Below are positions 34,240-57,735 of a stretch of 64,000 nucleotides of DNA, piece by piece. Location of the stretch: positions 2,148 through 66,147 of the forward strand of contig JAFYYP010000010.1 of assembly GCA_017557505.1 (NCBI GenBank). Reading direction: 5' to 3'. Under the pieces are notes generated by a model. The model had not been told where the DNA came from. It made no database searches and saw nothing but the letters and a program-made list of their open reading frames with translations. This DNA is from Bacillota bacterium (GTDB lineage: Bacteria > Bacillota > Clostridia > Peptostreptococcales > Anaerovoracaceae). Positions within the stretch are counted from its first letter, which is position 1, and the number at the start of each line of letters is the position of its first letter. The translations under genes and the position numbers were made by a program.

Positions 34240-34241
34240 GC

Positions 34242-44313: not shown

Positions 44314-44508
44314 TCAGTTTTCCATGGGTTCGACGATGATGTAATTGTCCATCAGGTCGATCTTCTGCACCTTGGCGTCGATCTTGCGCTGGATGCCCAT
44401 GATGTCCGTCATCACGAGGGTATCGCCTTCGAAGCGGACGTCCGCGATGTTGCGGAACAGCAGGCGGTCGTCGCTGCGGCTGCCGTCATAAACGTTGGAA
44501 AGACACAT
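44314..44508 (-). CDS. cooT: CooT-family small nickel-binding protein
   Basis: A 64-aa protein beginning MCLSNVY, with the invariant Cys2. The size and beta-rich pattern match CooT. Confidence 0.7.
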   Translation of the reverse strand: MCLSNVYDGSRSDDRLLFRNIADVRFEGDTLVMTDIMGIQRKIDAKVQKIDLMDNYIIVEPMEN

Positions 44509-44509
44509 G

Positions 44510-44737
44510 TTACGCCTCCAGAAGCTTTAAGGCTTCTTCGATCTTTTTATTACTATCCTCGATCTCGTGCACCGCTTCGTGCAGCAGCGCGGCCGCTTCT
44601 CCTTCGCAGCCGTGGGCCAGATCGTGCAGCTCTTCCGCATGATGCGCGTTGTGCTGGATCATGTATTTCAGCAGGGCCAGACGCTCTTCGGGAGAGACTG
44701 CCTGGGCATGGTCGTGGTCATGATGATGTTCGTGCAT
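44510..44737 (-). CDS. His-rich helical putative metal-binding protein
   Basis: The start was reassigned to MHEHHHDHDHAQ.., with RBS ggagg 6 nt upstream. The 75-aa protein has further His pairs (HNAHHAEELHDLAH) and one Cys. Its stop lies 1 nt before the cooT start. Confidence 0.55.
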   Translation of the reverse strand: MHEHHHDHDHAQAVSPEERLALLKYMIQHNAHHAEELHDLAHGCEGEAAALLHEAVHEIEDSNKKIEEALKLLEA

Positions 44738-44766
44738 AAATAACCTCCGGAAAGGCAACGTTTAAA

Positions 44767-44795
44767 TTGATTTAGTAGACAGTTTCCTATAAAAT
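44767..44795 (+). promoter_or_regulatory. Candidate sigma-A promoter of the dehydratase-family operon
   Basis: ttgatt (44767-44772), 17-nt spacer, taaaat (44790-44795), in the only AT-rich gap upstream of 44866. Confidence 0.35.
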
Positions 44796-44865
44796 TATAA
44801 CATAGCGTATTGTGTCCAAAACACACTTTTTCAAATATTTTTCACCTCGTAAAGGAGATGAGTGG

Positions 44866-46059
44866 ATGCGAGACTTAAAACACCTGATCTATTTTGAAGA
44901 TCTTCTGCAGGAGGCTCACAACGAACTGGTCCGCAAGGGCAAGGAAGACGGCAATCTCGCCCTCGGCTACACCTGCTACTTCATGCCGGAAGTGCTGCTG
45001 GACCTTCCCGGCTGCTTCTCTGTCAGACTGCGCGCTCCGCGCTGCGTTTCGCCCGACATGGCGACGTATTACATGTCCGGGCGCACCTGTCACTATGGCC
45101 GCTCCCTGTTCGAGCGTGCCCTCGAAGGCGGCTTCAACTTCCTCGACGCGCAGCTGGCTACCGAGACCTGCACGGTCACGTGCCGCTTCCAGGAACACCT
45201 GAAGGCGATGCCGGATGTCATCAACAACGTGAAGTTCAAGGTTTCGTTCTCCGACGTGCCGTTCAAGAAGAACGAGAACAGCATTGAACACTACGAAAAG
45301 CAGCTGCAGGCGCACGTGCTGGATTTCCTGAAGAGCGAATACGGCGTCGATACGTCCGACGAAGCGATCATGCGCGCGATCATCGCACATAACGAAGTGT
45401 GCCGCATCATCCGCGAGATCGGTGATTTCCGCAAACTGGACGAGCCGACCATCACCGGTTACGAATTCGCGGTCATCAATCTCGTATCCATGTGCTGCCC
45501 GAAGTATCTCATCATCGACAAGCTCAGAGAGACGCTCGAAGAGCTGAAGACGCGCGAACCGGACCAGCGCAAGACCTATCGCTGCAAAGTGCTGCTCGCG
45601 GGTTCCGAGAACGACGACCCCGAGTTCACGAAGCTCATCGAGAGCTGCGGCGCCCTCGTCGTCTGCGACCGCTACTGCTACGGCGCGGTCGAAGCGAGAG
45701 AACCGATCGAGATCCGCGAAGGCGAGACCCCGCTGCGCGCCGTCGCCCGCCACTATCTTCTGACGAGCCAGTGCACGCGCTTCATGGAGCAGGACGAGAT
45801 GCGCTACCGCAAGAAGAGGATCGCCGAACTGGCCAAGGAATACAAGGCGGACGGCGTCATCATCCTGTCCAATAAGTTCTGCGAATACTGGAGCTACGAG
45901 CGCATGATCGATACGATCGTCATTCCCAGGGACTACGGGTTCCCGGTCTGCTCCATCGAGAAAGAATACATCAACTCCGCGTCCGGCCAGCTGCGTACGC
46001 GCTTCCAGGCCTTCGTGGAGAGCATCGAGATCAAGAAACTCCAGGAGGGTGCAAAATGA
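44866..46059 (+). CDS. 2-hydroxyacyl-CoA dehydratase / benzoyl-CoA reductase family subunit (beta-like, set 1)
   Basis: The start was reassigned to the ATG at 44866, after aaaggag. LGYTCYFMPEVLL, ..VCDRYCYG.. and C-terminal SGQLRTRFQAFVESIEIKK. It is a clear paralogue of 50568-51773. Confidence 0.8.
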   Translation: MRDLKHLIYFEDLLQEAHNELVRKGKEDGNLALGYTCYFMPEVLLDLPGCFSVRLRAPRCVSPDMATYYMSGRTCHYGRSLFERALEGGFNFLDAQLATETCTVTCRFQEHLKAMPDVINNVKFKVSFSDVPFKKNENSIEHYEKQLQAHVLDFLKSEYGVDTSDEAIMRAIIAHNEVCRIIREIGDFRKLDEPTITGYEFAVINLVSMCCPKYLIIDKLRETLEELKTREPDQRKTYRCKVLLAGSENDDPEFTKLIESCGALVVCDRYCYGAVEAREPIEIREGETPLRAVARHYLLTSQCTRFMEQDEMRYRKKRIAELAKEYKADGVIILSNKFCEYWSYERMIDTIVIPRDYGFPVCSIEKEYINSASGQLRTRFQAFVESIEIKKLQEGAK

Positions 46060-47663: not shown

Positions 47664-47678
47664 AGGAAGGAACGCGAT

Positions 47679-47882
47679 ATGAAAAAAGCACTGAAAGTTT
47701 TAGGCAAGATCGCCGCAATCGGCGCTGCCGTTTACGCCGCGCTGTTCGCTGTCTTCTATTTCGACCTGGACGGCAAAGCGCTGTTCAAATTCGTGGAGCC
47801 TACGCTGGTCAAGCACTATGACAACATGCCGCGCCGCGACCCGATGAGCCGTCCGTACGGCGACAAGCCCACGAACGAATAA
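47679..47882 (+). CDS. Small single-pass membrane protein (paralogue of 54630-54866)
   Basis: 67 aa with one TM helix IAAIGAAVYAALFAVFYF. It shares LKVLG...YF.(x)LD.K.L with the 78-aa ORF at 54630. Its stop overlaps the htpG start. Confidence 0.55.
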   Translation: MKKALKVLGKIAAIGAAVYAALFAVFYFDLDGKALFKFVEPTLVKHYDNMPRRDPMSRPYGDKPTNE

Positions 47883-49771
47883 TGGAGAAAAGAGAGTTCA
47901 AAGCCGAATCGAGAAGACTGCTCGACCTGATGGTCAACTCGATCTATACGAATAAGGAGATCTTCCTGCGCGAGATCATCTCGAACGCGTCTGACGCCAT
48001 CGACAAACTGTGCCTGATGGCGCTCACGGACCCGTCCATCGGCCTGCGCCGCAGCGACTTCGAGATCACGATCGCGATCGACAAAGAGAATAGGACGCTT
48101 ACCGTTTCCGACAACGGTATCGGCATGAGCGCCGAAGAACTTGAGCAGAATCTCGGCACCATCGCGTTCTCCGGCAGTTCGGAATTCCGTGAACAGCTGC
48201 AGAAAGAACCTTCTGAAAACGCTTCGCAGACCGACATCATCGGCCAGTTCGGCGTGGGATTTTACTCTGCGTTCATGGTGTCCGACCATATCGACGTCGT
48301 CAGCCGCAGGTTCGGAGAAGAGCAGGCGTACCGCTGGAGTTCCGGCGGCGCTGACGGGTTCACGATCGAGCCCGCGGAGCGCGGCACCTGGGGCACGGAC
48401 GTCATCATGCACATCCGCCCGGACGGCGAAGAAAAAGACGAATACAGCCGCTATATGCGCGAATATCCGGTGTACAAACTGGTGAAGAAGTATTCGGATT
48501 ACGTGCGCTTTCCGATCAAGATGCTGCTGCCGAGACCCAAAGAGATGGAAGGCAGCACGCCGGAAGACCCGAAATTCGAAGAGGAGTGGGTGTACGAGAC
48601 GCTCAACTCCATGGTACCGATCTGGAAGCGCCGCAAGACGGAAGTCGAGCCTGAGGAATACGACCGTTTCTATACGGAGACCTACGGCGACCAGAACGTG
48701 CCTCAGACCGTCCTGCCCATATCGGTGGACGGACGCGTCAGCTACGACGCGCTGCTGTACATCCCGTCGAAAGCTCCCGCGGATTACTATTCCGACGAAT
48801 TCCGTCCCGGGCTTTCGCTGTACAGCTCGGGCATTCTGATCATGGAGCGCTGTGAAGAGTTGTTGCCGGAGTATTTCAATTTCGTTCGCGGCGTCGTCGA
48901 TTCGCCCGACCTGTCGCTGAACATCTCCCGCGAGATGCTGCAGCACGACAGGCAGCTGAAACTGATCGGCGAGCACCTCGAAAAGAAGGTGAGGGGCGAG
49001 CTCGAGCGTATGCTGAAGGACGACCGCAAGGCGTACGAACGCTTCTACGGCAACTTCGGCCGCCAGCTGAAGCTGTGCGCGCTCGAGGACTACGGCGCCA
49101 AGCAGGACCTGCTGCAGGATCTGCTGCTGTTCTGGTCCAACACGCAGAACGGCCTGAGCCTGCTGAGCGAATACGTTTCGCGCATGAAGCCCGATCAGAA
49201 ATATATCTACTACGCCTCCGGCGATACTGTTGAGTCTATCGACCGCCTGCCGCAGACGGAAGTCTTAAAGGACGGCGGCTACGAGATCCTGTACTTCAGC
49301 GAAAAGATGGATGAGTTCGTGGCCGACATGTTCCGCAAGTACGCGGACAAGCCGTTCCGCTCCGTGCTGGACGGCGACCTGGGTCTGCCGCCCGCCGAAA
49401 AGAAGGACGAGGCGCTGTACAAGGACGGTCTGGACTTCATCAAGAAGTCGCTGGGAGATAAGGTGGACGAAGTCGTTTCTTCCGCGCGCCTGAAGTCCCA
49501 TCCCGTGTGCCTGTCCAGCGGGGACGGCATCACGTTCGAGATGGAGCGCTATTTCAAGGCGATCGGACAGGAGATGCCCGTCAAGGCGAAACGCATTCTG
49601 GAGGTCAACACGGAACACCCGGCGTTCGCGGCCATCGACCGCACGATGACGGCGAATCCCGAAAAAGCAGCCAAGTACTGCGAAGTGCTGTACAACCAGG
49701 CGCTGCTGATCGCAGGGCTTCCCATCGAGGACCCTAGCGCCTACACGGACCTGCTGTGCAGTCTGTGGTAG
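47882..49771 (+). CDS. htpG: Molecular chaperone HtpG (Hsp90)
   Basis: N-terminal FKAESRRLLDLMVNSIYTNKEIFLREIISNASDAIDKL and GQFGVGFYSAFMV. 629 aa. Confidence 0.95.
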   Translation: MEKREFKAESRRLLDLMVNSIYTNKEIFLREIISNASDAIDKLCLMALTDPSIGLRRSDFEITIAIDKENRTLTVSDNGIGMSAEELEQNLGTIAFSGSSEFREQLQKEPSENASQTDIIGQFGVGFYSAFMVSDHIDVVSRRFGEEQAYRWSSGGADGFTIEPAERGTWGTDVIMHIRPDGEEKDEYSRYMREYPVYKLVKKYSDYVRFPIKMLLPRPKEMEGSTPEDPKFEEEWVYETLNSMVPIWKRRKTEVEPEEYDRFYTETYGDQNVPQTVLPISVDGRVSYDALLYIPSKAPADYYSDEFRPGLSLYSSGILIMERCEELLPEYFNFVRGVVDSPDLSLNISREMLQHDRQLKLIGEHLEKKVRGELERMLKDDRKAYERFYGNFGRQLKLCALEDYGAKQDLLQDLLLFWSNTQNGLSLLSEYVSRMKPDQKYIYYASGDTVESIDRLPQTEVLKDGGYEILYFSEKMDEFVADMFRKYADKPFRSVLDGDLGLPPAEKKDEALYKDGLDFIKKSLGDKVDEVVSSARLKSHPVCLSSGDGITFEMERYFKAIGQEMPVKAKRILEVNTEHPAFAAIDRTMTANPEKAAKYCEVLYNQALLIAGLPIEDPSAYTDLLCSLW

Positions 49772-49787
49772 GCAGAAAGGACGCAAA

Positions 49788-50552
49788 GTGAACGATAAAA
49801 CGATCATCATAGCCGTCTCAGGCAAAGGAGGCGTGGGAAAGACTTCGCTTTCCGCCGCTTTCGTGCGCCTGCTGGCGGAACGCAAACCGGACGCGAAGAT
49901 CCTCGCGATCGACGCGGACCCGGCCATCGGTCTTTCCACGGCGCTCGGCGTCGACGTCAAGACGACGCTCGACGACATCCGCAAGGGCATCGTCACGAGC
50001 GTGGAGGACGGGCGGCCCAAAGAAGCCATCGAGATGCTGTCCGAAGCCCGGTACCGCATCATCGATTCGCTGATCGAGGAGCGGTCGTTTTCCTTCCTGG
50101 CCATCGGACGGCCGGAAGGGGCGGGCTGCTACTGCAAGGTGAATGCCTACCTCAAGGAGGTCATCAGCCTGCTGGCCGGAGACTTCGACTACGTCGTCAT
50201 CGACGGCGAGGCGGGGATCGAACAGATCAACCGCAGGGTCATGGAAAAGGTGACCCACCTGGTGCTCGTCACCGACCCCAGCCGCAAGGGGACCCAAGTC
50301 GTGCAGACCATCAAGAAAGTTGCGGACGAAATGGTGATGTACGAGCGCTGCGGCGCTGTCATCAACAGGGTGTCGGACCCGGACGCCCTGCCATATATCC
50401 ATATCGAGGGCGTGCCCATCCTTGCCGTCGTTCCGGACGACAAGGCGCACGCGACCAACGATATCAAGGGTCTGAGCGTATTCGACCTTCCGCAGGACGC
50501 GCCCGTCATGAAAGGTGCCGCGGAAGCGCTTACAAAACTGGATATTCTGTAA
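49788..50552 (+). CDS. CooC-type (MinD/ParA-fold) metallocentre-maturation ATPase
   Basis: GTG start. Deviant Walker A AVSGKGGVGKTS, DADP, the CooC-type metal motif GAGCYCKVN, and DGEAGIEQ. Confidence 0.8.
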   Translation: MNDKTIIIAVSGKGGVGKTSLSAAFVRLLAERKPDAKILAIDADPAIGLSTALGVDVKTTLDDIRKGIVTSVEDGRPKEAIEMLSEARYRIIDSLIEERSFSFLAIGRPEGAGCYCKVNAYLKEVISLLAGDFDYVVIDGEAGIEQINRRVMEKVTHLVLVTDPSRKGTQVVQTIKKVADEMVMYERCGAVINRVSDPDALPYIHIEGVPILAVVPDDKAHATNDIKGLSVFDLPQDAPVMKGAAEALTKLDIL

Positions 50553-51773: not shown

Positions 51774-53771
51774 ATGGCAGACATCATGAATGCGATCGGC
51801 AAGACGCTGGACCTGGCGAATGACCTGCCCCCTATGCGCATGCCCGACGTGAAAATGCCCAATATCAAATTGCCGAACGTGAACCTTCCGAAAGTGGAAC
51901 TGCCGAAAGTCGACACTTCCAAGGCGAAGGCCGCGGCGGAAAAGCTCCCAAAGTTCTCCGTGCCGAAGTTCTCTCTGCCGAAGTTCGAGAAGAAGGCAAA
52001 GTATCCGAATCCTGCGTTCTTCAAGGCGAAGGACAACATGGACTGGAAGGCCCAGGGCGAAAACCTGAAGGAAGTCGGCGGCATCATCATGCAGCTGTTC
52101 AAGGAAGCGGACTGGAAGGACTTCCTGCTGCGCCAGAAGAATGGCTTTGCAGCTGATTTCGCCCGCGTGAAGAGCGAAGTCGAAGAGCTGTCCGCGATGA
52201 CCCCCGAAGAGCGCAAGGACATCTTCCTCCACGGCGAAAAGCATCTGGGCAAGCTGTACCGCTCCGGCTGCATGGCCACCGTCAGAAGAGAGTGGAGAGG
52301 CGCGAAAGACACCGCCTACGACTTCTACGAATGGCTGCACATGTGGGGCATGCTGCTGGGAACGTTCTCGCACGACCTCGTTCCCGCGCTGAACGCGACG
52401 TTCCACTACCGCTGGATGATCAGCTACATGTGCTGCGTGGGCTTCATGGATAAGAACACGCTCGGCCAGAAGGGCTCCGCCTTGAAGATGAGCCACCTGA
52501 TGATCTACGACATCTTCCGTTACGTAGCGGAGAACCTTGTGTTCCTGGCCAAGTGCGACGAAAAGAACGGCAACAGCAAGGAGCTGAACAAGAAGGTCGT
52601 CCTGTTCGACGAGATGACCATGGGTCAGATCATGGCGGGCTTCCCGGACCTGCTGGGCATTCCGTACCAGCTGATGCCGGTGTTCCTCGTCTCCGAGATC
52701 GACCAGCTCACCTGCGTTCCCTACATCGACGCCGTCGAATCGTTCGGCCTGCCGGCGGATACCTGCCCGGTTCCGTCCTCCGAATGCGGCGCGCTGGTGC
52801 TGGATGCGCTGCCCCACATGGGCGCGTGCTTCATTTCCAGCTCCATGCCGTGCGACGGCTCCGTCATGGCGTCCTCGTACATGTCCAGACGCTTCCCGGA
52901 CCTGCCGGTGTTCCACCTGACGTTCCCGGTGCGTTACGAGTACGAAGAGACCGTCGAAGACGCAGCCGAAGACATCAAGGCGTGCATTAAGTTCGTGGAA
53001 GAAAAGACCGGCGCCAAGTGGAATTGGGACGCTTACTTCACGAACATGAAGCGGTTCAACGAAGAGACGAAGTACGAGCTCGAGAAGTGGGAAGTCAACA
53101 AGACCCCGTATCCGCAGATCATAGGCCCGGCGTACGAACTGTTCCGCAAGTGGAACTACGAGATGGACGGCGGCTCCGATCCGCGCGTTCCCAAGACGTT
53201 CCGCAAGGTCGACAAGATCATGAAGCAGGCGTACGAGCGCAGGGAAGAGGCGTGGCGCGGCAAGATGAAGTACCGCGGCATCGTCTGGAGCTGCCCGGCT
53301 CACTACTACGCGAACTTCAGCAACTGGATCGCGAACTGCTGGGGCGTGGACATCCTCGTTGAGATGGAGAGCCTGAACTTCACCAAGCCTCTGGAGACCG
53401 AGGACAAGGAACTCGCGCTGCAGGATCTGGCAAGGCTGTACGAACGCATGGTCATGAGACGCCACACGAACGGCGGCTACCGCAACGTCGTGGACGAACT
53501 GTGGCGCCAGTGCGAAGCCTGGAACGTCGAGATCATCATCATGTACCAGAACGTGGCATGCAAGAATATGTCCACGCTGCAGGGCATCCTGGATGAACAG
53601 GCCAGAGACAAAGGCTATCACATGATCTGGCTCGAGCACGACCTGATGGATCCGCGTACGGTATCCCGCAAGTCGATGCGCGCGAAGGTCAACGAATATA
53701 TGAGGACCGTCATGAAGGCGGAACCTGTCGATCCGTCCCTTGTGGAATTCGACGACGAAAACGCTATGTAA
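51774..53771 (+). CDS. Enlarged 2-hydroxyacyl-CoA dehydratase family subunit (alpha-like, set 2) with a repeat-bearing N-terminal extension
   Basis: The start directly follows the upstream stop (TAAATG). 665 aa. Cys contexts ADTCPVPSSECG and SMPCDGSV. C-terminal DPSLVEFDDENAM. Confidence 0.75.
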   Translation: MADIMNAIGKTLDLANDLPPMRMPDVKMPNIKLPNVNLPKVELPKVDTSKAKAAAEKLPKFSVPKFSLPKFEKKAKYPNPAFFKAKDNMDWKAQGENLKEVGGIIMQLFKEADWKDFLLRQKNGFAADFARVKSEVEELSAMTPEERKDIFLHGEKHLGKLYRSGCMATVRREWRGAKDTAYDFYEWLHMWGMLLGTFSHDLVPALNATFHYRWMISYMCCVGFMDKNTLGQKGSALKMSHLMIYDIFRYVAENLVFLAKCDEKNGNSKELNKKVVLFDEMTMGQIMAGFPDLLGIPYQLMPVFLVSEIDQLTCVPYIDAVESFGLPADTCPVPSSECGALVLDALPHMGACFISSSMPCDGSVMASSYMSRRFPDLPVFHLTFPVRYEYEETVEDAAEDIKACIKFVEEKTGAKWNWDAYFTNMKRFNEETKYELEKWEVNKTPYPQIIGPAYELFRKWNYEMDGGSDPRVPKTFRKVDKIMKQAYERREEAWRGKMKYRGIVWSCPAHYYANFSNWIANCWGVDILVEMESLNFTKPLETEDKELALQDLARLYERMVMRRHTNGGYRNVVDELWRQCEAWNVEIIIMYQNVACKNMSTLQGILDEQARDKGYHMIWLEHDLMDPRTVSRKSMRAKVNEYMRTVMKAEPVDPSLVEFDDENAM

Positions 53772-53819
53772 GCAAGGGCGGAAAGCCCATATCAGAGAAT
53801 AGAAAAGGAGAAATAGAAA

Positions 53820-54617
53820 ATGAAATATTTTGGCGGATGCGACGTAGGTTCCACCTATACCAAGGCAGTCATCCTCGATGAAAACGGCAATATCTGCGCA
53901 GATACGACCATCAAGAGCAAGATCAACGCGGAGCAGTCCGCGAAGATCGCGATGGAAGAAGTCCTGAACAAGGTGGGTCTGAAGTCCTCCGAAGATCTGG
54001 AATACCTGATCGGTACCGGCTACGGCCGCAACAAGGTTCCCTTCGCTGACGAGAACATCTCCGAGATCTCCTGCCACGCGATGGGCGTGCACGTCACCGA
54101 TCCGACCGTCAAGGCGATCATCGACATCGGCGGCCAGGACGTCAAGGGTATCAGCGTCGACACCGACGGCACCGTGAAGAACTTCGCGATGAACGACAAG
54201 TGCGCCGCAGGCACGGGCCGCTTCTACGAAGCGATGGCCAGAGGTTTCGAGATGACCCTTCCCGAATTCTCCAACCTCAGCCTGAACGCGAAGAACGTCA
54301 TCCCCATCACCGCGCAGTGCACGGTATTTGCCGAATCTGAAGTCATCACCCTGGTAGGCGAAGGCAAGCCCATGGACGAGATCGCGGCCGGCATCCAGAT
54401 GGCTGTCGCCAAGAGATGTTTCGTCATGGCCAAGAAGGCCGGCGCCACCGACAGCATCACCCTGACCGGCGGCTGCGCGAAGAACGCAGGACTGAAGCAG
54501 GCCATCGAGCACGTTCTGAAGCTGAAGGTCATCGACCTGAAGACCGACCCGCAGCTGATGGGCGCTCTGGGCGCAGCGGAATATGCCCGCCAGAAGGGAC
54601 TCGCAAAACTGCAGTAA
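53820..54617 (+). CDS. Acyl-CoA dehydratase activase (HgdC/BcrAD_BadFG ATPase)
   Basis: GCDVGSTYTKAV, EISCHAMG, IDIGGQDVK, MNDKCAAGTGRF and QCTVFAESEVI. Both cluster-bridging Cys contexts are present. Confidence 0.9.
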   Translation: MKYFGGCDVGSTYTKAVILDENGNICADTTIKSKINAEQSAKIAMEEVLNKVGLKSSEDLEYLIGTGYGRNKVPFADENISEISCHAMGVHVTDPTVKAIIDIGGQDVKGISVDTDGTVKNFAMNDKCAAGTGRFYEAMARGFEMTLPEFSNLSLNAKNVIPITAQCTVFAESEVITLVGEGKPMDEIAAGIQMAVAKRCFVMAKKAGATDSITLTGGCAKNAGLKQAIEHVLKLKVIDLKTDPQLMGALGAAEYARQKGLAKLQ

Positions 54618-54629
54618 AGGAGACCTCCC

Positions 54630-54866
54630 ATGACATTTCTTGAGAGAAGAGCCTTGAAAAAGGCCAAGAAAAAGGAAAAGGCCAGGAAGAAGGCCCGCAG
54701 ACAGGCGATCCTGAAGGTATCCGGCACGCTGCTGAAGGTGCTGGGTGCCGTCACAGGCGTGCTGTTTATCGTGTACTTCTGGAACCTGGACCAGAAGCTT
54801 CTGGGCTGGTCCTACGTTCAGGTGAACAAGATCTTCGACCGCAAGGAAGCGGACATCAAGTTCTAA
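54630..54866 (+). CDS. Small single-pass membrane protein (paralogue of 47679-47882)
   Basis: 78 aa. Highly basic N-terminus KKAKKKEKARKKARR and TM helix LKVLGAVTGVLFIVYFW. Confidence 0.55.
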   Translation: MTFLERRALKKAKKKEKARKKARRQAILKVSGTLLKVLGAVTGVLFIVYFWNLDQKLLGWSYVQVNKIFDRKEADIKF

Positions 54867-54867
54867 G

Positions 54868-55605
54868 ATGCAGCTATACGATACCATCATCCGGGATACG
54901 CTGGCCGCGTTATTTTCCCGGCCTTCCAGAAGCTATGCGTACGCGCAGGGCAGGGCCTGGAAAGATACCGGTGCCAGCGAACTCGTGATGCAGCGCGACG
55001 CGGCGTACGAGCTGGGCGGAGACGACAAGCCCGCCGTCAATTTCTCGTGCGTCACGACGGACGCGTCCTTTGTGGACAAAGACGAGATCGTGGTCATCGG
55101 AAAAGACCTGGGCGAGATCGGCTCGTCCGTTCCGTTCGCCCGCCTGGCGTTCGTCCTCATCGACGACATCAAGGTGGAAGAAGGGGATACGGAGCCGCTG
55201 TTCCGGGCCATCCAGGACATCGATTTCGTGAAGTACCACGTCTTTCCGGAAGGCTATATGGTGCGCACGTCCTCGGAAAACAACCGCGAGCAGGTGCGCA
55301 TCAGCAAGAAGGCAAAGCAGGCCGGCATCAGCTTCGAACGCGTCGGCTGCGACTACATCGCGCAGTACAAGCGTGACCCGAACATCCGCGCGGTCAAACT
55401 GGTGTTCGTCACCGACCCGTCTGTGGATTACAAGAAGTTGGCGGCGGACGCAAAGACCGTACACGACATTACGCTCACGCTCTCGAAGATCCTCGAGGGC
55501 ATGCCCACAGACTGCAATTCCTGCAACCTCAAGCCGATCTGCGACGAGGTGGAGGGCATGAAAGAACTGCACTTCGGACAGAACAAAGCTGAATTCAGAA
55601 GTTAA
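54868..55605 (+). CDS. Hypothetical protein resembling the central domain of acetyl-CoA synthase (AcsB/CdhC), with a C-terminal CxxCx5C motif
   Basis: 245 aa. The stretch ..DEIVVIGKDLGEIGSSVPFARLAFVLID...FVKYHVFPEGYMVRT...QVRISKKAKQAGISFERVG..IRAVKLVFVTDP.. parallels, from memory, the AcsB middle domain. The protein ends DCNSCNLKPICDEVEG. Confidence 0.5.
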   Translation: MQLYDTIIRDTLAALFSRPSRSYAYAQGRAWKDTGASELVMQRDAAYELGGDDKPAVNFSCVTTDASFVDKDEIVVIGKDLGEIGSSVPFARLAFVLIDDIKVEEGDTEPLFRAIQDIDFVKYHVFPEGYMVRTSSENNREQVRISKKAKQAGISFERVGCDYIAQYKRDPNIRAVKLVFVTDPSVDYKKLAADAKTVHDITLTLSKILEGMPTDCNSCNLKPICDEVEGMKELHFGQNKAEFRS

Positions 55606-55614
55606 GGAGAAACT

Positions 55615-57675
55615 ATGGATAAGAAATTCGAACCCCTATTTACCCCGTGGAAGATCCGCAACGTCGAGATCCCGAACCGCATCGTCCAGCCTTCCATGGG
55701 CGGCACGTCGCTGTTCGGCTGGCTCGAACCCTGCCACTTCGACAAGGAGGCTGCTTACCACATCCTGAACCGCGCGCAGAACAACGTCGGCCTGGTGCTG
55801 CCGGGCATGCAGTGCGTGCGCGATACCATGGGCAAGCGCTGGCTGTATACGAACAAGCAGATGTTCAAGGATCTGTCCAAGTGGATGCCCGAATTCGACG
55901 CGACCGGCTCCAAGCTGTTCGTCCAGCTGGCCGGCGGTTTCGGCCGCTCCATGGCCATCAACCAAATGATGGTCGACATGCTGGAAAAGCCGGCGTTCGG
56001 CAAGGTCGCCAAACCCTTCCTGGACGTCGAATACTGCTGCGCTTCCGCTTCGGAGACGCCCAACCGCTGGTATCCGTCCCTGAAGTCCCGTCCGATGACC
56101 GTCGAAGAGATCCATGAGATGGTCGACGCGTTCGGCAAGACCGCGTATCTGCTGCAGCAGGCAGGCGTGCACGGCGTCGAGATCCACGCCGTACACGAAG
56201 GCTACCTGCTCGACCAGTTCACGATCGCGAACTGGAACTACCGTACCGACGAATACGGCGGATCCTTCGAGAACCGCTATCGCTTCCCGGTGGAGATCGT
56301 CCAGGCGATCAAGAAGCAGTGCGGAGACGACTTCCCCGTATCGCTGCGCTACTCCGTCGTTTCCAAGACGAAGGGCTTCGGCGAAGGTGCCGTTCCCGGC
56401 GAGGAATTCGAGGAATTCGGCCGCGACATGGAAGAATCCGAAAAAGCCATCAAGTACCTCGGCGACGCGGGCTACGACATGTTCAACTGCGACAACGGCA
56501 CGTACGACGCCTGGTACTGGGCACATCCGCCCGTATACATGCCGCATAACTGCAACCTGCCCGAAGTCGAGCACATCAAGAACTTCACGGACAAACCCGT
56601 CGTGTGCGCGGGTAAGATGACCATGGACGTCGCGGCGGAAGAGATCGCTGCTGGCAGACTGGATGCTGTCGGCGTTGCCCGTCAGAACCTCGTAGACCCC
56701 GAATGGGTCAACAAGATCCTCGAGGGCAGAGAAGACGAGATCAAGCCGTGCATCAACTGCCACAACGCCTGCTTCTCGTTCAGCAAGTCTAAGAGCACGC
56801 CGAACATGCAGAGCCTCGACGACTCGCTGCACCTCGCGCGCTGCGCGCTCACCCCGTCCACGATGCAGCACAACAAGTACAAGATCGTCCCGACGAAGCA
56901 CCCGAAGAAGGTCGCGATCATCGGCGGCGGCATCGGCGGCATGGAAGCTGCGCTCGTGCTGAAGAAGCGCGGCCACGAGCCCGTCATCTTCGAGAAGAGC
57001 GACAAGCTCGGCGGCATGTACATCTATGCGTCCGAGATGTCCTTCAAGGAAGCGGACAAGGCGTTGCTGAGATGGTACGACAGAGAGCTGAAGAAGTACG
57101 ATATCGAAGTGCGCTACAATATGGAGATCAACGCGCCGCAGACGCTGAGAAGAGAGTTCGACGAAGTGCTCGTCGCGACCGGCGCTGCACCCAAGACGCT
57201 TCCCGTCAAGGGCTTCCACAAGTGCCTCACCTTCAAGGAACTGCTCCTCAAGGAGAAGGATGCCGGCGACAAGATCGTGTTCTTCGGCGGCGGTCAGTCC
57301 TCATGCGAAGCGGCTTACGAGATGGTGCTGCAGGGCAAGCATCCGATGATCGTTGAATTCGCGGACGACCTGATCGTCACGCCGGGCACCTGCCTCGCGA
57401 ACTCCTCGTTCCTCAGAGACATGCTGAAGTTCAAGAACGTACCCGTTTATCTGGAGCACACCATCACCGAGATCGGCGACGGCTACGTCATGGTCAAGCC
57501 CAATAACGGCGAACCGTTCAAACTGGAGTGCGACAGCGTCGTATCCGGTATCGGCTTCGTTCCCGCTCCCGTTGCGGCGGACGACAGGAAGGTAAAGCGC
57601 ATCGGCACCTGCGAGAAGTGGGGCAACCTGCGCGACGTCATCTGGTCCGCCTGGGACGTGTGCATGAAGATCTGA
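55615..57675 (+). CDS. Old-yellow-enzyme-type FMN / 4Fe-4S / FAD-NAD(P) oxidoreductase (2-enoate reductase / 2,4-dienoyl-CoA reductase family)
   Basis: OYE core (VEIHAVHEGYLLDQF, RTDEYGGSFENRYRF), Cys motif CINCHNAC, and a second dinucleotide fold VAIIGGGIGGMEAA. 686 aa. Confidence 0.9.
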   Translation: MDKKFEPLFTPWKIRNVEIPNRIVQPSMGGTSLFGWLEPCHFDKEAAYHILNRAQNNVGLVLPGMQCVRDTMGKRWLYTNKQMFKDLSKWMPEFDATGSKLFVQLAGGFGRSMAINQMMVDMLEKPAFGKVAKPFLDVEYCCASASETPNRWYPSLKSRPMTVEEIHEMVDAFGKTAYLLQQAGVHGVEIHAVHEGYLLDQFTIANWNYRTDEYGGSFENRYRFPVEIVQAIKKQCGDDFPVSLRYSVVSKTKGFGEGAVPGEEFEEFGRDMEESEKAIKYLGDAGYDMFNCDNGTYDAWYWAHPPVYMPHNCNLPEVEHIKNFTDKPVVCAGKMTMDVAAEEIAAGRLDAVGVARQNLVDPEWVNKILEGREDEIKPCINCHNACFSFSKSKSTPNMQSLDDSLHLARCALTPSTMQHNKYKIVPTKHPKKVAIIGGGIGGMEAALVLKKRGHEPVIFEKSDKLGGMYIYASEMSFKEADKALLRWYDRELKKYDIEVRYNMEINAPQTLRREFDEVLVATGAAPKTLPVKGFHKCLTFKELLLKEKDAGDKIVFFGGGQSSCEAAYEMVLQGKHPMIVEFADDLIVTPGTCLANSSFLRDMLKFKNVPVYLEHTITEIGDGYVMVKPNNGEPFKLECDSVVSGIGFVPAPVAADDRKVKRIGTCEKWGNLRDVIWSAWDVCMKI

Positions 57676-57704
57676 TCTTCGAACATATTACGGAAATAAA
57701 AAAG

Positions 57705-57735
57705 GGCCTCTGCAGTTCTGCAGAGGCCTTTTCAT
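57705..57735. terminator. Bidirectional Rho-independent terminator
   Basis: An 11-bp perfect stem ggcctctgcag/ctgcagaggcc with a tt loop, an A-tract upstream and a T-tract downstream. It sits between convergent genes. Confidence 0.8.

What the first reader, a model, noticed from the sequence alone, without database searches (positions are those of the whole stretch)
44314..57735. Eleven-gene operon joining duplicated dehydratase/BCR-family radical-enzyme subunits to CODH/ACS-type nickel-maturation parts, HtpG and an enoate reductase
The genes from 44866 to 57675 are co-directional and tightly packed. There is an ATGA overlap at 46056, TAATG at 47880-47884 and TAAATG at 51771-51776, and all other gaps are 48 nt or less. 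The block sits between an AT-rich promoter region and the strong terminator at 57705-57735. It contains two paralogous pairs of 2-hydroxyacyl-CoA dehydratase/benzoyl-CoA reductase-family subunits (beta-like 397 and 401 aa; unusually large alpha-like 535 and 665 aa) but only one HgdC-type activase. It also encodes two homologous mini membrane proteins, HtpG, a CooC-type ATPase that keeps the CYC metal motif, a protein resembling the central domain of acetyl-CoA synthase, and an OYE/FAD enoate-reductase-type enzyme. CooT and a His-rich protein are encoded divergently. The usual partners of characterised dehydratases are absent: there is no CoA-transferase, 2-hydroxyacid dehydrogenase or acyl-CoA dehydrogenase/Etf. 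The usual clients of CooC/CooT (CooS, and AcsB with an A-cluster domain) are also absent. I do not recognise this combination as a described pathway. It suggests either an ATP-driven low-potential reductase/dehydratase whose metallocluster needs dedicated (possibly Ni-related) maturation and Hsp90 assistance, or a new reductive pathway that ends at the enoate reductase.
Basis: partly seen in the sequence, partly recalled or inferred. Interest (0 to 1): 0.88.

Follow-up and report, generated by a model that had tools for sequence, protein, structure and literature searches.

The report
Uncharacterised ATP-driven iron-sulfur enzyme cluster
A tightly conserved but uncharacterised gene cluster of gut and rumen Clostridia joins benzoyl-CoA-reductase-like, ATP-driven iron-sulfur enzymes to nickel-chaperone-type proteins, a fragment of acetyl-CoA synthase and Hsp90, which points to a new kind of low-potential metalloenzyme whose substrate is unknown.

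Summary
All eleven co-directional genes and the two divergent ones exist as described, and the overlaps, gaps, promoter-like region and terminators were all verified.

The combination is not a chance neighbourhood.
- Relatives of the large alpha subunit occur in 455 species genomes.
- The order CooC–beta2–alpha2–activase–mini-protein–ACS-like is essentially invariant: 72/72, 58/58, 58/58 and 57/58.
- A second module, beta1–alpha1–mini-protein(–HtpG) with a His-rich protein and often CooT, usually lies nearby in variable orientation.
- Cluster GC follows host GC (45–62%) while proteins stay about 80% identical, so selection is strong.
- ACS-like proteins only 24–29% identical, from environmental metagenomes, still sit beside CooC and HGD-D/activase genes.

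The beta subunits keep all six cysteines of the BzdN [8Fe-9S] double cubane. The alpha subunits have a BzdO/HadB-like fold with a remodelled cysteine/histidine set. The ACS-like protein is a true ACS middle domain that ends in an invariant C-x2-C-x5-C motif.

The enoate reductase is facultative (16/42 loci). No paper or NCBIfam equivalog describes the system.

Best reading: a new variant of BCR/HAD-family ATP-driven enzymes with dedicated, probably nickel-related, metallocentre assembly. The substrate is unknown and nickel is unproven.

The parts
44314..44508 (-). CooT-type small nickel chaperone (64 aa), divergent from the operon
   Evidence: Pfam CooT PF10133, 59.7 bits against a cut-off of 27, full length. 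Cys2 is present. A CooT gene lies within 9 kb of the core in 13 of 30 loci with full flanks.
44510..44737 (-). His-rich helical protein (DUF8180; 75 aa from the ATG at 44737, ORF extends to 44758)
   Evidence: The sequence MHEHHHDHDH... has 14 His and 1 Cys. The precomputed annotation is PF26551 DUF8180. It recurs divergently upstream of beta1 or after the ACS-like gene in many loci. No PDB or CooJ sequence homology was found.
44759..44865 (.). AT-rich divergent promoter region between the His-rich gene and beta1
   Evidence: 31% GC over 107 nt. Two sigma-70-like matches lie at 44767-44803. These are consensus matches only; function is inferred.
44866..46059 (+). beta1: BzdN-like HGD-D subunit (397 aa), predicted [8Fe-9S] double-cubane carrier
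   Evidence: HGD-D 288 bits. The best NCBIfam match is double_cubane at 136 bits, below the cut-off of 350. C37, C75, C102, C271, C303 and C339 are invariant. They correspond to beta2 C39/77/104/272/304/340, which align to BzdN Cys36/73/100/263/293/327 (PMC11971306).
46056..47663 (+). alpha1: large divergent HGD-D subunit (535 aa), catalytic-subunit analogue
   Evidence: HGD-D 95 bits over residues 190-490. It is 34% identical to alpha2. It shares the invariant Cys x5 and His x1 with alpha2. It is preceded by beta1 in 34/35 loci and followed by mini-protein 1 in 32/34.
47679..47882 (+). mini-protein 1 (67 aa), one hydrophobic helix plus a conserved tail (FDLDGK...VEP...H.D.M.RRDP)
   Evidence: Kyte-Doolittle 19-residue maximum is 2.03. 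The tail motif is conserved in 37 orthologues. The protein has no Pfam family.
47882..49771 (+). HtpG (Hsp90), 629 aa
   Evidence: NF003555 643 bits against a cut-off of 371; Pfam HSP90 328 bits. It lies within 1.2 kb downstream of alpha1 in 25/34 loci.
49788..50552 (+). CooC/AcsF-type MinD-family ATPase (254 aa) with CxC metal motif
   Evidence: The best PDB match is CooC1 3kje (E 2.7e-16), with GAGCYC aligned to GSQCYC. C114 and C116 are invariant in 75 orthologues. It lies directly upstream of beta2 in 72/72 loci and next to distant ACS-like genes in 23/24 environmental loci.
50568..51773 (+). beta2: BzdN-like HGD-D subunit (401 aa; possibly 399 aa from 50574), predicted [8Fe-9S] carrier
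   Evidence: HGD-D 301 bits. The best PDB match is BzdN 8s02_B (E 1.5e-25), with all six cluster cysteines aligned. C39, C77, C104, C272, C304 and C340 are invariant in 78 orthologues.
51774..53771 (+). alpha2: large divergent HGD-D subunit (665 aa): disordered 1-74, helical extension about 80-273, HGD-D core
   Evidence: HGD-D 126 bits over residues 317-642. The AF2 model has pLDDT 72. The Foldseek top hits are BzdO 8s02 (TMt 0.71), HadB 3o3m and DCCP 6eno. C331, C360, C507, C522, C596 and H622 are invariant in both alpha1 and alpha2. Relatives occur in 455 species genomes.
53820..54617 (+). HgdC-type activase (265 aa), ASKHA ATPase with bridging [4Fe-4S]
   Evidence: BcrAD_BadFG 193 bits; TIGR00241 217 bits against a cut-off of 125. 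C128 and C167 are invariant; they fall one position from the HgdC cluster ligands Cys127/Cys166 (own knowledge; no alignment to HgdC was made). Orthologues are 83-98% identical across families. It is present after alpha2 in 58/58 loci.
54630..54866 (+). mini-protein 2 (78 aa), basic N-terminus plus a hydrophobic helix, homologous to mini-protein 1
   Evidence: Kyte-Doolittle maximum is 2.0, and it is 42% identical to mini-protein 1 over 31 aa. It is present in 58/58 loci.
54868..55605 (+). ACS-like protein (245 aa): acetyl-CoA synthase middle domain plus invariant C216-x2-C219-x5-C225
   Evidence: Pfam CdhC 31 bits. The AF2 model has pLDDT 82.7. All 22 significant Foldseek PDB hits are acetyl-CoA synthases. 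Residues 42-195 align to Moorella ACS 335-483. The three Cys are 98-99% conserved over 103 family representatives. It is present in 57/58 loci.
55615..57675 (+). OYE/FAD/[4Fe-4S] 'enoate reductase'-type flavoenzyme (686 aa), a facultative member
   Evidence: Oxidored_FMN 164 bits plus Pyr_redox_2 87 bits. The best PDB matches are 2-naphthoyl-CoA reductase 6qkg (3e-50) and FadH 1ps9. BaiCD scores 312 bits against a cut-off of 825. A close orthologue lies downstream in 6/48 loci, and a distant paralogue lies divergently upstream of CooC in 25/64.
57701..57732 (.). bidirectional intrinsic-terminator-like hairpin ending the operon
   Evidence: 14-bp stem with 7 GC pairs and T-runs on both strands.

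Best explanation
The locus encodes two paralogous ATP-dependent, low-potential iron-sulfur enzymes of the benzoyl-CoA reductase / 2-hydroxyacyl-CoA dehydratase / double-cubane (BCR/HAD/DCCP) superfamily, together with their own metallocentre-assembly set.

Each enzyme is a beta-alpha pair plus a mini hydrophobic subunit.
- The beta subunit is BzdN-like. It carries an [8Fe-9S] double cubane that stores low-potential electrons.
- The large alpha subunit has a BzdO/HadB-like fold and is the catalytic subunit. Its metal site is remodelled. It keeps four of the six double-cubane ligand positions and adds an invariant Cys and His.
- One HgdC-type homodimeric activase hydrolyses ATP to inject electrons.

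Four further proteins form a dedicated metal-delivery or auxiliary-cluster module that serves the alpha/beta enzymes, and the metal is most likely nickel. They are a CooC/AcsF-type ATPase (CxC motif), CooT (Cys2), a His-rich protein, and a stand-alone acetyl-CoA-synthase middle domain carrying the first three A-cluster cysteines. HtpG assists folding or assembly of the alpha1/beta1 module.

Where present, the OYE/FAD flavoenzyme reduces a C=C bond in the product or in a neighbouring intermediate.

Shown: the domain identities, ligand conservation, folds and conserved gene linkage. Inferred: cluster types, nickel, the direction of electron flow, complex composition, any membrane association, and all chemistry. 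The substrate is unknown. It may not be a CoA ester made by a dedicated transferase, because none is linked.
For: - Domain and fold assignments.
- All six BzdN [8Fe-9S] ligands align with, and are invariant in, beta1 and beta2 (ligand list from PMC11971306).
- Alpha2 is structurally closest to the catalytic subunits BzdO and HadB.
- Five Cys and one His are invariant across alpha1 and alpha2 despite 34% identity.
- Activase C128 and C167 are invariant.
- The CooC CxC motif aligns to CooC1 and is invariant.
- The ACS-like protein is a true ACS homologue; its only near-universally conserved residues are three Cys placed where the A-cluster motif begins.
- Linkage: the core order is invariant in 57-72 testable loci. 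Alpha1 is followed by the mini-protein in 32/34 loci and by HtpG in 25/34.
- ACS-like proteins only 24-29% identical, from environmental metagenomes, still sit beside CooC (23/24) and HGD-D/activase genes.
- Cluster GC tracks host GC from 45 to 62% while proteins stay about 80% identical. The cluster is therefore native and under strong selection.
- In another species, a CsoR/RcnR-family repressor with a His-rich N-terminus sits inside the cluster.
- A separate Mrp/NBP35-type Fe-S carrier ATPase exists in the same window, so the CooC-like gene is not the generic carrier.
Against: - No metal content, activity or transcript data exist.
- Nickel rests on homology to chaperones whose known clients (CooS, AcsB) are absent.
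- CooT lies within 9 kb of the core in only 13/30 fully flanked loci, and HtpG in 17/30.
- The alpha-versus-beta ligand mapping relies on a low-probability hhalign alignment (6.7%) and on a DCCP alignment that covers only the N-terminal half.
- The AF2 model of alpha2 is weakest exactly around the putative ligands at residues 328-340.
- The mini-proteins' topology by the positive-inside rule would put their conserved tails outside the cell. That fits badly with a cytoplasmic Fe-S partner (inference).
- The flavoenzyme is absent from most loci.
Confidence: 0.6

Rival explanations
1. The system is the same ATP-driven BCR/HAD-type enzyme, but the CooC-like ATPase, the ACS-like protein and the small chaperones have nothing to do with nickel. 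CooC would be a MinD/Mrp-type factor that builds or inserts the unusual Fe-S clusters (the double cubane or the remodelled alpha site). The ACS-like protein would simply carry a [4Fe-4S] cluster on its three cysteines, as an electron-transfer or scaffold subunit.
For: - The ACS-like protein keeps only the cubane-type cysteines and lacks the Cys-Gly-Cys nickel ligands.
- In ACS, those same three positions bind the [4Fe-4S] part of the A-cluster (own knowledge of Moorella ACS Cys506/509/518/528 and Cys595/597).
- CooT is missing near many loci.
- MinD-family ATPases serve many metal-cluster systems (one search lists MinD, ArsA and Get3 relatives).
Against: - The CxC motif is the CooC/AcsF metal site, not the CxxC of Mrp/NBP35 carriers.
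- A separate Mrp/NBP35-type ATPase is encoded in the window.
- CooT, a His-rich protein and, in one species, an RcnR/CsoR-family repressor with a His-rich tail recur in the cluster.
- BzdNO and DCCP assemble their double cubanes in E. coli without such factors (PMC11971306, PMC7317905).
Confidence: 0.25
2. The ACS-like protein is the catalyst. It would carry an A-cluster-like Ni-[4Fe-4S] site completed by residues of alpha2. The BCR-like alpha/beta/activase machinery would be its ATP-driven reductive activator, working as RACo does for the corrinoid protein or as the MCR activation complex does for F430.
For: - The ACS-like protein and CooC are the pair most deeply co-conserved with HGD-D/activase genes.
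- The three Cys are the only invariant residues of the family.
- ATP-driven activation of nickel centres by complex Fe-S machinery has a precedent (PMC12176620, title and abstract seen).
Against: - The ACS-like protein is small and lacks the whole A-cluster domain, including the second nickel site.
- Alpha subunits are the most strongly conserved and largest proteins, and they resemble substrate-binding subunits.
- Two or three alpha/beta pairs share one ACS-like protein.
Confidence: 0.07
3. It is a dearomatising aryl-carboxyl-CoA reductase pathway of the known kind. That would be a class I benzoyl-CoA reductase plus an NCR-like OYE reductase, as in anaerobic naphthalene degradation, here acting on dietary aromatic acids.
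For: - The best solved relative of beta2 is BzdN, and that of alpha2 is BzdO.
- The best solved relative of the flavoenzyme is 2-naphthoyl-CoA reductase.
- Distant clusters have two activase-like genes, as in BcrAD/BzdPQ.
Against: - Equivalog scores are far below the cut-offs: bzdN 87-89 against 454, and no bzdO hit for the alpha subunits.
- Alpha subunits show no detectable sequence similarity to BzdO or HadB, even with a profile.
- The window has a single homodimer-type activase.
- No CoA ligase, dienoyl-CoA hydratase, dehydrogenase or ring hydrolase appears among the recurrent neighbours.
- The flavoenzyme is absent from most loci.
Confidence: 0.05
4. It is an ordinary 2-hydroxyacyl-CoA dehydratase of amino-acid fermentation that happens to lie next to housekeeping htpG and cooC genes.
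For: HGD-D and activase domains are shared with HgdAB, HadBC and FldBC. [quoted passage not shown]
Against: - The neighbourhood is conserved across families and into distant environmental lineages.
- The beta subunits have six double-cubane cysteines, not the three-Cys site of HadC; the HadC equivalog scores 70-71 bits against a cut-off of 700.
- No CoA-transferase, 2-hydroxyacid dehydrogenase or Acd/Etf is linked.
Confidence: 0.03

Closest known systems
BzdNO / class I benzoyl-CoA reductase (Aromatoleum sp. CIB; PDB 8s02; PMC11971306)
   Same: It is a heterodimer of two HGD-D-fold subunits. The electron-storing subunit has six Cys for an [8Fe-9S] double cubane, all conserved in beta1 and beta2. 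The catalytic-subunit fold is the closest structural match to alpha2. Electron injection is ATP-driven through a BcrAD-family ATPase.
   Different: The alpha subunits are 100-230 residues longer, with a helical N-terminal extension. They have no detectable sequence similarity to BzdO and carry a different invariant Cys/His set. There is a single homodimer-type activase instead of BzdPQ. Extra subunits and factors are present (mini-proteins, ACS-like, CooC, CooT, His-rich protein, HtpG). No benzoyl-CoA pathway genes are linked. The hosts are gut and rumen Clostridia.
Double-cubane cluster protein DCCP / DCCP-R (Carboxydothermus hydrogenoformans; PDB 6eno; PMC7317905)
   Same: It is the only solved protein detectable by sequence from the alpha subunits (E 8e-9 with a profile). 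The beta subunits' best NCBIfam match is the double_cubane model. It is also a two-component ATP-dependent reductase of unknown physiological substrate.
   Different: DCCP is a homodimer with a 7-Cys motif and no accessory genes. Here there are heteromeric alpha/beta pairs, scores far below the family cut-off (136-139 against 350 bits), and a dedicated accessory set.
2-hydroxyacyl-CoA dehydratases (HadBC/HadI, HgdAB/HgdC)
   Same: They share the HGD-D alpha/beta architecture and a homodimeric HgdC-type activase. HadB is among the top structural matches of alpha2.
   Different: HadC-type beta subunits bind a [4Fe-4S]/[4Fe-5S] cluster through three Cys. CoA-transferase and 2-hydroxyacid dehydrogenase genes are normally linked, and none is linked here.
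CODH/ACS nickel maturation set (CooC/AcsF, CooT, CooJ) and acetyl-CoA synthase
   Same: The system has a CooC-type ATPase with the CxC site and a CooT with Cys2. It has a His-rich helical protein that is functionally reminiscent of CooJ. It also has a protein homologous to the ACS middle domain, with cysteines at the positions of A-cluster Cys506/509/518.
   Different: There is no CooS and no AcsB A-cluster domain (Cys528 and Cys595-Gly-Cys597 are absent). The His-rich protein has no detectable homology to CooJ. The linked client is a BCR/HAD-type enzyme, and no such link has been described.
PlsA/Ger ester-to-ether lipid reductases (PMC13159169)
   Same: They belong to the same BcrAD plus HGD-D superfamily and act on a non-CoA membrane-lipid substrate. 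This is a precedent for a system without a CoA-transferase and with possible membrane association.
   Different: PlsA and Ger are large fusion proteins with two BcrAD domains and DUF2229. None of that architecture is present here.

Membership tests
BCR/HAD/DCCP superfamily (HGD-D subunits energised by a BcrAD-family ATPase) | Two homologous HGD-D-fold subunits | tested here: met
   PF06050 hits at 288, 95, 301 and 126 bits. The alpha2 model matches BzdO, HadB and DCCP with TMt 0.69-0.75.
BCR/HAD/DCCP superfamily (HGD-D subunits energised by a BcrAD-family ATPase) | ASKHA ATPase activator with the Cys pair for a subunit-bridging [4Fe-4S] | tested here: met
   TIGR00241 217 bits against a cut-off of 125.4. 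C128 and C167 are invariant in 64 orthologues. Correspondence to HgdC Cys127/166 comes from own knowledge.
BCR/HAD/DCCP superfamily (HGD-D subunits energised by a BcrAD-family ATPase) | ATP-dependent electron transfer to the HGD-D component | not testable with these tools
   This needs biochemistry.
Class I benzoyl-CoA reductase (Bzd type) | BzdN-type subunit with six Cys ligands of the [8Fe-9S] cluster | tested here: met
   The alignment to 8s02_B places beta2 C39/77/104/272/304/340 on BzdN Cys36/73/100/263/293/327. All are invariant.
Class I benzoyl-CoA reductase (Bzd type) | Membership of the bzdN / bzdO / bzdQ equivalogs | tested here: not met
   TIGR03190 scores 87-89 bits against 453.8. 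TIGR03191 gives no hit for the alpha subunits. TIGR03192 scores 178 against 380.
Class I benzoyl-CoA reductase (Bzd type) | Two different ATPase subunits and linked dienoyl-CoA pathway genes | tested here: not met
   The window has one activase gene. No hydratase, dehydrogenase, hydrolase or CoA ligase appears among the recurrent neighbours.
2-hydroxyacyl-CoA dehydratase | Equivalog-level similarity to HadC/HgdB-type beta subunits and a three-Cys cluster site | tested here: not met
   NF052456 scores 70-71 bits against a cut-off of 700. The beta subunits carry the six-Cys double-cubane set.
2-hydroxyacyl-CoA dehydratase | Linked CoA-transferase and 2-hydroxyacid dehydrogenase | tested here: not met
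   None is in the window or among the families recurring in 80 related loci.
Double-cubane cluster protein (NF040772) | Score above the family cut-off, 7-Cys motif, homodimer | tested here: not met
   Scores are 136-139 bits (beta) and 28-36 bits (alpha) against a cut-off of 350. The genes are paired alpha/beta. The six ligand Cys are nevertheless present in beta.
CooC/AcsF nickel-insertion ATPase | MinD-type P-loop with the CxC metal-binding motif | tested here: met
   The best PDB match is CooC1 3kje at E 2.7e-16. GKGGVGKT and CYC align to the CooC1 motifs. C114 and C116 are invariant.
CooC/AcsF nickel-insertion ATPase | Linked Ni-Fe-S client (CooS or AcsB) | tested here: not met
   There is no CooS or AcsB in the window or in related loci. 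Only the 245-aa ACS-domain protein is linked.
CooC/AcsF nickel-insertion ATPase | Nickel binding and ATP-dependent nickel insertion | not testable with these tools
   This needs metal analysis.
Acetyl-CoA synthase (AcsB/CdhC) | ACS middle-domain fold | tested here: met
   There are 22 Foldseek hits at E<=1e-3, all of them ACS. An hmmsearch aligns residues 42-195 to Moorella ACS 335-483.
Acetyl-CoA synthase (AcsB/CdhC) | Complete A-cluster ligand set (Cys506, 509, 518, 528, 595, 597) and the C-terminal domain | tested here: not met
   The protein ends 20 residues after C225. Only C216, C219 and C225 are present, positioned like Cys506/509/518. cdhC scores 26 bits against a cut-off of 356.
CooT | Pfam CooT domain with N-terminal Cys2 | tested here: met
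   59.7 bits against a cut-off of 27, full length. The sequence starts MC....
HtpG (bacterial Hsp90) | Equivalog-level full-length match | tested here: met
   NF003555 scores 643 bits against a cut-off of 371 over residues 2-627.
FadH/enoate-reductase family (OYE + [4Fe-4S] + FAD/NAD domain) | Oxidored_FMN plus Pyr_redox_2 architecture with the inter-domain Cys motif | tested here: met
   Pfam scores are 164 and 87 bits. A CxxCxxxC...C motif is visible in the translation. NCR and FadH are the best PDB matches.
BaiCD / bilirubin reductase (specific members of that family) | Equivalog score | tested here: not met
   BaiCD scores 312 against 825, and long-form BilR scores 263 against 750.
PlsA/Ger ether-lipid reductase | Fused BcrAD-BcrAD-DUF2229-HGD-D architecture | tested here: not met
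   No DUF2229 is present, and the subunits are separate. The reference architecture is from PMC13159169.

The most novel reading that the evidence does not exclude
The alpha subunits, alone or together with the ACS-like protein, hold a nickel-containing heterometallic Fe-S centre built on the BCR/HAD scaffold. It would be installed by CooC, CooT and the His-rich protein with Hsp90 help, and charged with ATP-energised electrons from a double cubane. That would be a new class of nickel enzyme. It would also be the first non-CODH/ACS client of the CooC system. The enzyme is abundant in human and ruminant gut Clostridia and would catalyse an unknown, very low-potential reduction.
Probability: 0.3. 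Interest if true: 0.92.

Novelty: new variant of a known kind. Interest (0 to 1): 0.78.

Why it matters
Known nickel enzymes are few, and the only established clients of CooC-type maturases are CODH and ACS. ATP-driven BCR/HAD/DCCP enzymes perform some of the lowest-potential reductions in biology, yet most family members, including DCCP and E. coli YjiM, have no known substrate.

This cluster links the two worlds. It occurs in hundreds of gut and rumen species, some of them very abundant: individual protein clusters hold 1,500-2,800 metagenomic member sequences. Its proteins are under unusually strong purifying selection.

Working out its metal content and substrate could reveal three things: a new metallocofactor, a new role for bacterial Hsp90 in metalloenzyme assembly, and a widespread unrecognised reductive reaction of the gut microbiome. 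It also corrects a database error, because the ACS-like protein is currently annotated as 'carbon monoxide dehydrogenase'.

Tried and rejected
**Literature.** Seven full-text searches found nothing on this cluster. They combined HtpG, CooC, CooT, 2-hydroxyacyl-CoA dehydratase, benzoyl-CoA reductase, double-cubane, HGD-D/PF06050 and nickel. 'Coot', the crystallography program, swamps searches for CooT.
- The putative isoprene reductase with HypA/HypB (PMC10134865) is a conceptually similar case but an unrelated protein family.
- Haft's SAO/double-cubane neighbourhood (bioRxiv 2022.07.06.499078) is a different system, with no CooC, HtpG or ACS-like protein.

**Family libraries.** NCBIfam gave no equivalog above cut-off for any alpha, beta, ACS-like, mini-protein, CooT or His-rich protein. 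DUF8180 is not in the local Pfam copy, so the His-rich family name rests on precomputed annotation.

**Solved structures.**
- A profile of alpha1 plus alpha2 against PDB sequences finds only DCCP, not BzdO or HadB.
- hhalign of alpha against beta profiles gives 6.7% probability, so the mapping of alpha cysteines onto double-cubane ligand positions is tentative.
- The His-rich protein has no relative in the PDB, including CooJ.

**Searches that failed or were limited.**
- The search for related loci with a 30-member distant ACS-like alignment failed because no conserved stretch was available. A six-member sub-alignment worked.
- The predicted structures return no coordinates, so Cys-Cys distances and possible alpha/ACS-like interfaces could not be measured. 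No multimer prediction is available.

**Ideas rejected.**
- Recent horizontal transfer as the cause of the high identity: cluster GC equals flank GC in 61 loci.
- A link to the upstream molybdopterin oxidoreductase/ferredoxin/PNDR operon: it is separated by a bidirectional terminator and absent from all other loci.
- HypA/HypB next to the 965-aa Fer4_20/Pyr_redox_2 protein at 24772-27669: none found.
- The 1690-aa ORF on the minus strand at 49818-54890: it is an antisense artefact of the conserved plus-strand genes.

**Caveat.** MAG labels such as Alistipes, Bacteroidaceae and Sphaerochaetaceae for a few loci are probably binning errors. They were not used as evidence of distribution.

Full report

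Yes. The ORF list and translations give eleven co-directional genes from 44866 to 57675 and two divergent genes (CooT 44314-44508; His-rich protein 44510-44737/44758). The inter-gene distances are -4, 15, -1, 16, 15, 0, 48, 12, 1 and 9 nt. The ATGA, TAATG and TAAATG junctions are as quoted.

The 107-nt region upstream of the first gene has 31% GC and two sigma-70-like matches. A 14-bp hairpin with T-runs on both strands closes the block at 57701-57732. A second bidirectional hairpin (44276-44303) separates the divergent pair from the upstream molybdopterin-oxidoreductase operon. No strong internal terminator was found.

- four HGD-D proteins
- one BcrAD_BadFG activase (TIGR00241, 217 bits, above cut-off)
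- HtpG (NF003555, 643 bits)
- a CbiA/MinD-type ATPase whose best solved relative is CooC1, with the CxC motif aligned
- a weak but above-threshold CdhC hit
- CooT
- an Oxidored_FMN plus Pyr_redox_2 flavoenzyme

Beta1 and beta2 are 52% identical, alpha1 and alpha2 34%, and the two mini-proteins 42% over 31 residues. There is one activase, one CooC and one ACS-like gene in the 64 kb window. The window has no CoA-transferase, 2-hydroxyacid dehydrogenase, Acd/Etf, CooS or full AcsB.

**2. Is the combination more than chance?**

The exact alpha2 protein lies on four metagenomic contigs with the same gene order. A scan of one genome per species found relatives in 455 species. Nearly all are gut or rumen Bacillota: Oscillospiraceae including Vescimonas, Oscillibacter and Brotocaccenecus; Anaerovoracaceae/Mogibacterium; Solobacterium; and some Lachnospiraceae.

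I mapped all window proteins onto the 80 fetched loci by tblastn.
- **Invariant core:** CooC-beta2-alpha2-activase-mini2-ACS-like. CooC is present in 72/72 testable loci, the activase in 58/58, mini2 in 58/58 and the ACS-like gene in 57/58.
- **Second module:** beta1-alpha1-mini1. Beta1 precedes alpha1 in 34/35 loci, and mini1 follows alpha1 in 32/34. HtpG follows within 1.2 kb in 25/34. The module lies upstream, downstream or on the opposite strand of the core, with the His-rich gene and often CooT beside it.
- **Third pair:** some species carry a third beta-alpha-mini triplet and a second activase copy.
- **Other neighbours:** clustering all flanking ORFs found one further recurrent family, an OYE/FAD flavoenzyme. 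It occurs in two forms. A close orthologue of the window gene lies downstream in 6/48 loci. A 758-aa paralogue, 25-28% identical, is transcribed divergently 306-454 nt upstream of CooC in 25/64 loci. Either form is present in 16 of 42 loci testable on both sides.

The eleven-gene operon of the window is therefore a lineage-specific end-to-end arrangement of conserved modules plus a facultative flavoenzyme.

The GC content of the cluster equals that of its flanks in 61 loci, ranging from 45 to 62% (mean difference 0.6 points). Alpha2, beta2 and the activase nevertheless stay about 75-98% identical. This excludes recent transfer and indicates strong purifying selection.

**3. A deeper test with the least ordinary part**

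The ACS-like family has 723 representatives at 50% clustering with E<=1e-3. The listed hits are stand-alone proteins no longer than about 300 residues, most of them about 235-245. Members only 24-29% identical to the window protein were fetched from environmental metagenomes.

Where flank allows, these lie in clusters of the form X-beta-alpha-activase-activase-ACS-like-CooC. X is a roughly 480-aa helical protein with no Pfam family. The cluster is often followed by a second beta'-alpha'-activase' set, which is the closer relative of the window genes. CooC is adjacent in 23 of 24 testable cases.

The linkage of an ACS-domain protein and a CooC-type ATPase to HGD-D/BcrAD enzymes is therefore old and widespread among anaerobes. 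HtpG and the mini-proteins were not detected in those distant clusters, so they may be additions of the gut-Clostridia type. The short mini-, His-rich and CooT proteins could, however, have escaped tblastn at E 1e-4 and the coverage filter.

**4. What the parts are**

*Beta subunits.* The best solved relative of beta2 is BzdN of the class I benzoyl-CoA reductase BzdNO (E 1.5e-25). The alignment puts beta2 C39/77/104/272/304/340 on the six cysteines that ligate the BzdN [8Fe-9S] double cubane (ligand list in PMC11971306). All six are invariant in 78 beta2 and 36 beta1 orthologues. The beta subunits are thus predicted double-cubane electron-storage subunits.

*Alpha subunits.* They are much more divergent. 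By sequence, only DCCP is detectable, and only over the N-terminal half.
- An AlphaFold model of alpha2 (pLDDT 72) shows a disordered, lineage-specific segment at 1-74, a helical extension at about 80-273, and an HGD-D core.
- The closest solved structures are the catalytic subunits BzdO (TM 0.71 on the target) and HadB, then DCCP and MbdO.
- Across alpha1 and alpha2, five Cys (C331, C360, C507, C522, C596 in alpha2 numbering) and H622 are invariant.
- C331 and C360 align to DCCP Cys114 and Cys144, which by the published 7-Cys spacing (PMC7317905) would be the third and fourth motif cysteines. A low-confidence profile alignment puts C522 and C596 on beta2 C272 and C340.
- Tentatively, alpha keeps four of the six double-cubane positions, loses two, and gains an invariant Cys and His. 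This differs from the three-Cys [4Fe-4S] site of BzdO and HadB and from a full double cubane.

*Activase.* It keeps C128 and C167. These fall one position from the two cysteines that bridge the [4Fe-4S] cluster in HgdC (own knowledge; no alignment to HgdC was made).

*ACS-like protein.*
- It models well (pLDDT 82.7).
- All 22 significant structural matches are acetyl-CoA synthases.
- Residues 42-195 align to Moorella ACS 335-483.
- The invariant C216-x2-C219-x5-C225 therefore lies where the A-cluster ligands Cys506-x2-Cys509-x8-Cys518 begin. This placement is positional inference, and the ligand numbering is from own knowledge.
- Over 103 representatives that are 23-52% identical, these three Cys are the best-conserved residues (98-99%). 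In 30 distant members they are the only invariant columns.
- The protein ends 20 residues later. It lacks Cys528 and the Cys595-Gly-Cys597 nickel site.
- NCBI currently names it 'carbon monoxide dehydrogenase', which is wrong.

*Flavoenzyme.* It belongs to the FadH/enoate-reductase family. The best solved relatives are 2-naphthoyl-CoA reductase and 2,4-dienoyl-CoA reductase. It is far below the BaiCD and bilirubin-reductase cut-offs.

**5. How it most likely works**

My committed model has four parts.
- Each beta-alpha(-mini) unit is an ATP-dependent, very-low-potential Fe-S enzyme of the BzdNO type. The activase dimer hydrolyses ATP and passes electrons to the beta double cubane, which feeds the catalytic metal site in alpha.
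- CooC (CxC), CooT (Cys2), the His-rich protein and the ACS-like three-Cys protein form a dedicated metal-delivery or auxiliary-cluster module. The metal is most likely nickel.
- HtpG helps fold or assemble the alpha1/beta1 module.
- Where present, the flavoenzyme reduces a C=C bond in the product.

Several observations favour a non-iron metal.
- The system has the CooC-type CxC site rather than an Mrp-type CxxC.
- A separate Mrp/NBP35-type ATPase is encoded in the same window.
- CooT and a His-rich protein recur.
- In an abundant human-gut species, a CsoR/RcnR-family repressor with a His-rich N-terminus sits inside the cluster.
- BzdNO and DCCP assemble their double cubanes in E. coli without such helpers (PMC11971306, PMC7317905).

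Other observations weaken the nickel case. No known CooC client is present. CooT is missing near many loci. The ACS-like protein keeps only the cubane-type cysteines. Nothing has been measured.

I give 0.6 to the overall model and about 0.3 to nickel actually being part of the catalytic centre.

The substrate is unknown. No CoA-transferase or CoA ligase is linked, and hydrophobic mini-subunits are present. PlsA and Ger (same superfamily, lipid substrates) set a precedent. Together these make a non-CoA or membrane-associated substrate conceivable, but this is speculation. The predicted topology of the mini-proteins is itself ambiguous.

**6. Rivals**

- (a) The same enzyme, but CooC and the ACS-like protein serve Fe-S assembly or electron transfer, with no nickel: 0.25.
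- (b) The ACS-like protein is the catalyst and the BCR-like machinery is its reductive activator: 0.07.
- (c) A conventional dearomatising aryl-CoA pathway: 0.05. Equivalog scores, the single activase and the missing pathway genes speak against it.
- (d) An ordinary 2-hydroxyacyl-CoA dehydratase beside housekeeping genes: 0.03. This is effectively refuted by synteny and by the six-Cys beta subunits.

**7. Comparison with what is known, and novelty**

The system works like BzdNO or DCCP with an HgdC-type activase, and it belongs to that superfamily. It fails the membership tests for class I BCR, 2-hydroxyacyl-CoA dehydratase, DCCP, ACS, BaiCD/BilR and PlsA/Ger (see the membership table).

Seven full-text searches found no description of it. 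No NCBIfam equivalog (release of June 2026) covers alpha, beta, the ACS-like protein or the mini-proteins. The nearest published comparative-genomics work on double-cubane proteins concerns a different neighbourhood.

I classify it as a new variant of a known kind. There is a realistic chance (about 0.3) that it is a new class of nickel enzyme and the first non-CODH/ACS client of the CooC system.

**8. Verdict**

The conserved, dedicated accessory set is real and unexplained. The 'operon of eleven' is modular, the enoate reductase is optional, and nickel and Hsp90 roles remain inferences. Interest is 0.78.

Noticed in passing
window 49818-54890 (- strand): A 1690-aa open reading frame runs antisense across CooC, beta2, alpha2, the activase and mini-protein 2. 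It overlaps strongly conserved plus-strand genes and is almost certainly a non-coding artefact of GC-rich codon usage. A naive ORF caller would pick it up.
   Followed up: partly
window 51774-51995 (alpha2 residues 1-74): This is a low-complexity Pro/Lys-rich repeat extension (…MPDVKMPNIKLPNVNLPKVELPKV…KFSVPKFSLPKF…). A full-length match to it is seen only in the two closest relatives (L005, L006). Most orthologues match only from about residue 64-77, and several show partial or weaker N-terminal matches. It is predicted disordered (pLDDT<50).
   Followed up: partly
L085-L088 (abundant human-gut species), e.g. L085:10878-20383: These loci carry a third beta-alpha-mini triplet. Between HtpG and the alpha1 module they also have a 94-aa and a 170-aa protein without Pfam families. 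A CsoR/RcnR-family repressor (PF02583) there has a His-rich N-terminal extension and C...H...C residues, reminiscent of the nickel sensor InrS (own knowledge).
   Followed up: partly
L090-L118 (environmental metagenomes), e.g. L117:2428-9495, L101:2215-13104: Distant relatives of the system have the order X-beta-alpha-activase-activase-ACS-like-CooC(-beta'-alpha'-activase'). X is a conserved, roughly 480-540-aa all-helical protein with no Pfam family. These alpha subunits are about 466 aa and keep more of the double-cubane cysteines. This appears to be a separate uncharacterised branch.
   Followed up: partly
window 39613-44266 (+): This is an operon of a molybdopterin oxidoreductase (DMSO-reductase family, 744 aa), two 4Fe-4S ferredoxin-like proteins and a pyridine-nucleotide-disulfide oxidoreductase. 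It ends at a bidirectional terminator (44276-44303). It lies next to the cluster only in this lineage and is not conserved in other loci.
   Followed up: partly
window 342-13488 (+): Two giant predicted surface proteins (2278 and 2012 aa) carry DUF7507/DUF11 and Listeria-Bacteroides repeats. Part of the second gene (about 9-11 kb) has markedly lower GC (about 42%, against 49-54% in the rest of this stretch) than the rest of the window (55-63%). This may be an acquired adhesin locus.
   Followed up: no
window 28082-35258 (+): An Opp/Nik-type ABC importer has an unusually long 767-aa SBP_bac_5 binding protein, two permeases and at least one ATPase confirmed by Pfam (33088-34239; the next ORF, 34242-35258, was not scanned). 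The same family includes nickel transporters. Specificity was not determined, and the transporter is not linked to the cluster in other loci.
   Followed up: no
window 37830-38651 (+): An Mrp/NBP35/ApbC-type Fe-S carrier ATPase (PF10609, 283 bits) is distinct from the CooC-like ATPase of the operon.
   Followed up: no
window 24772-27669 (-): A 965-aa Fer4 plus Fer4_20 plus Pyr_redox_2 protein (GltD/dihydropyrimidine-dehydrogenase-like) has the same domain class as the putative isoprene reductase IsrA discussed in PMC10134865. No HypA or HypB was found beside it.
   Followed up: partly
public annotation of the ACS-like family (P0121, P0124, P0128): NCBI records name this 245-aa protein 'carbon monoxide dehydrogenase'. 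It is an ACS middle-domain homologue, not a CODH.
   Followed up: yes
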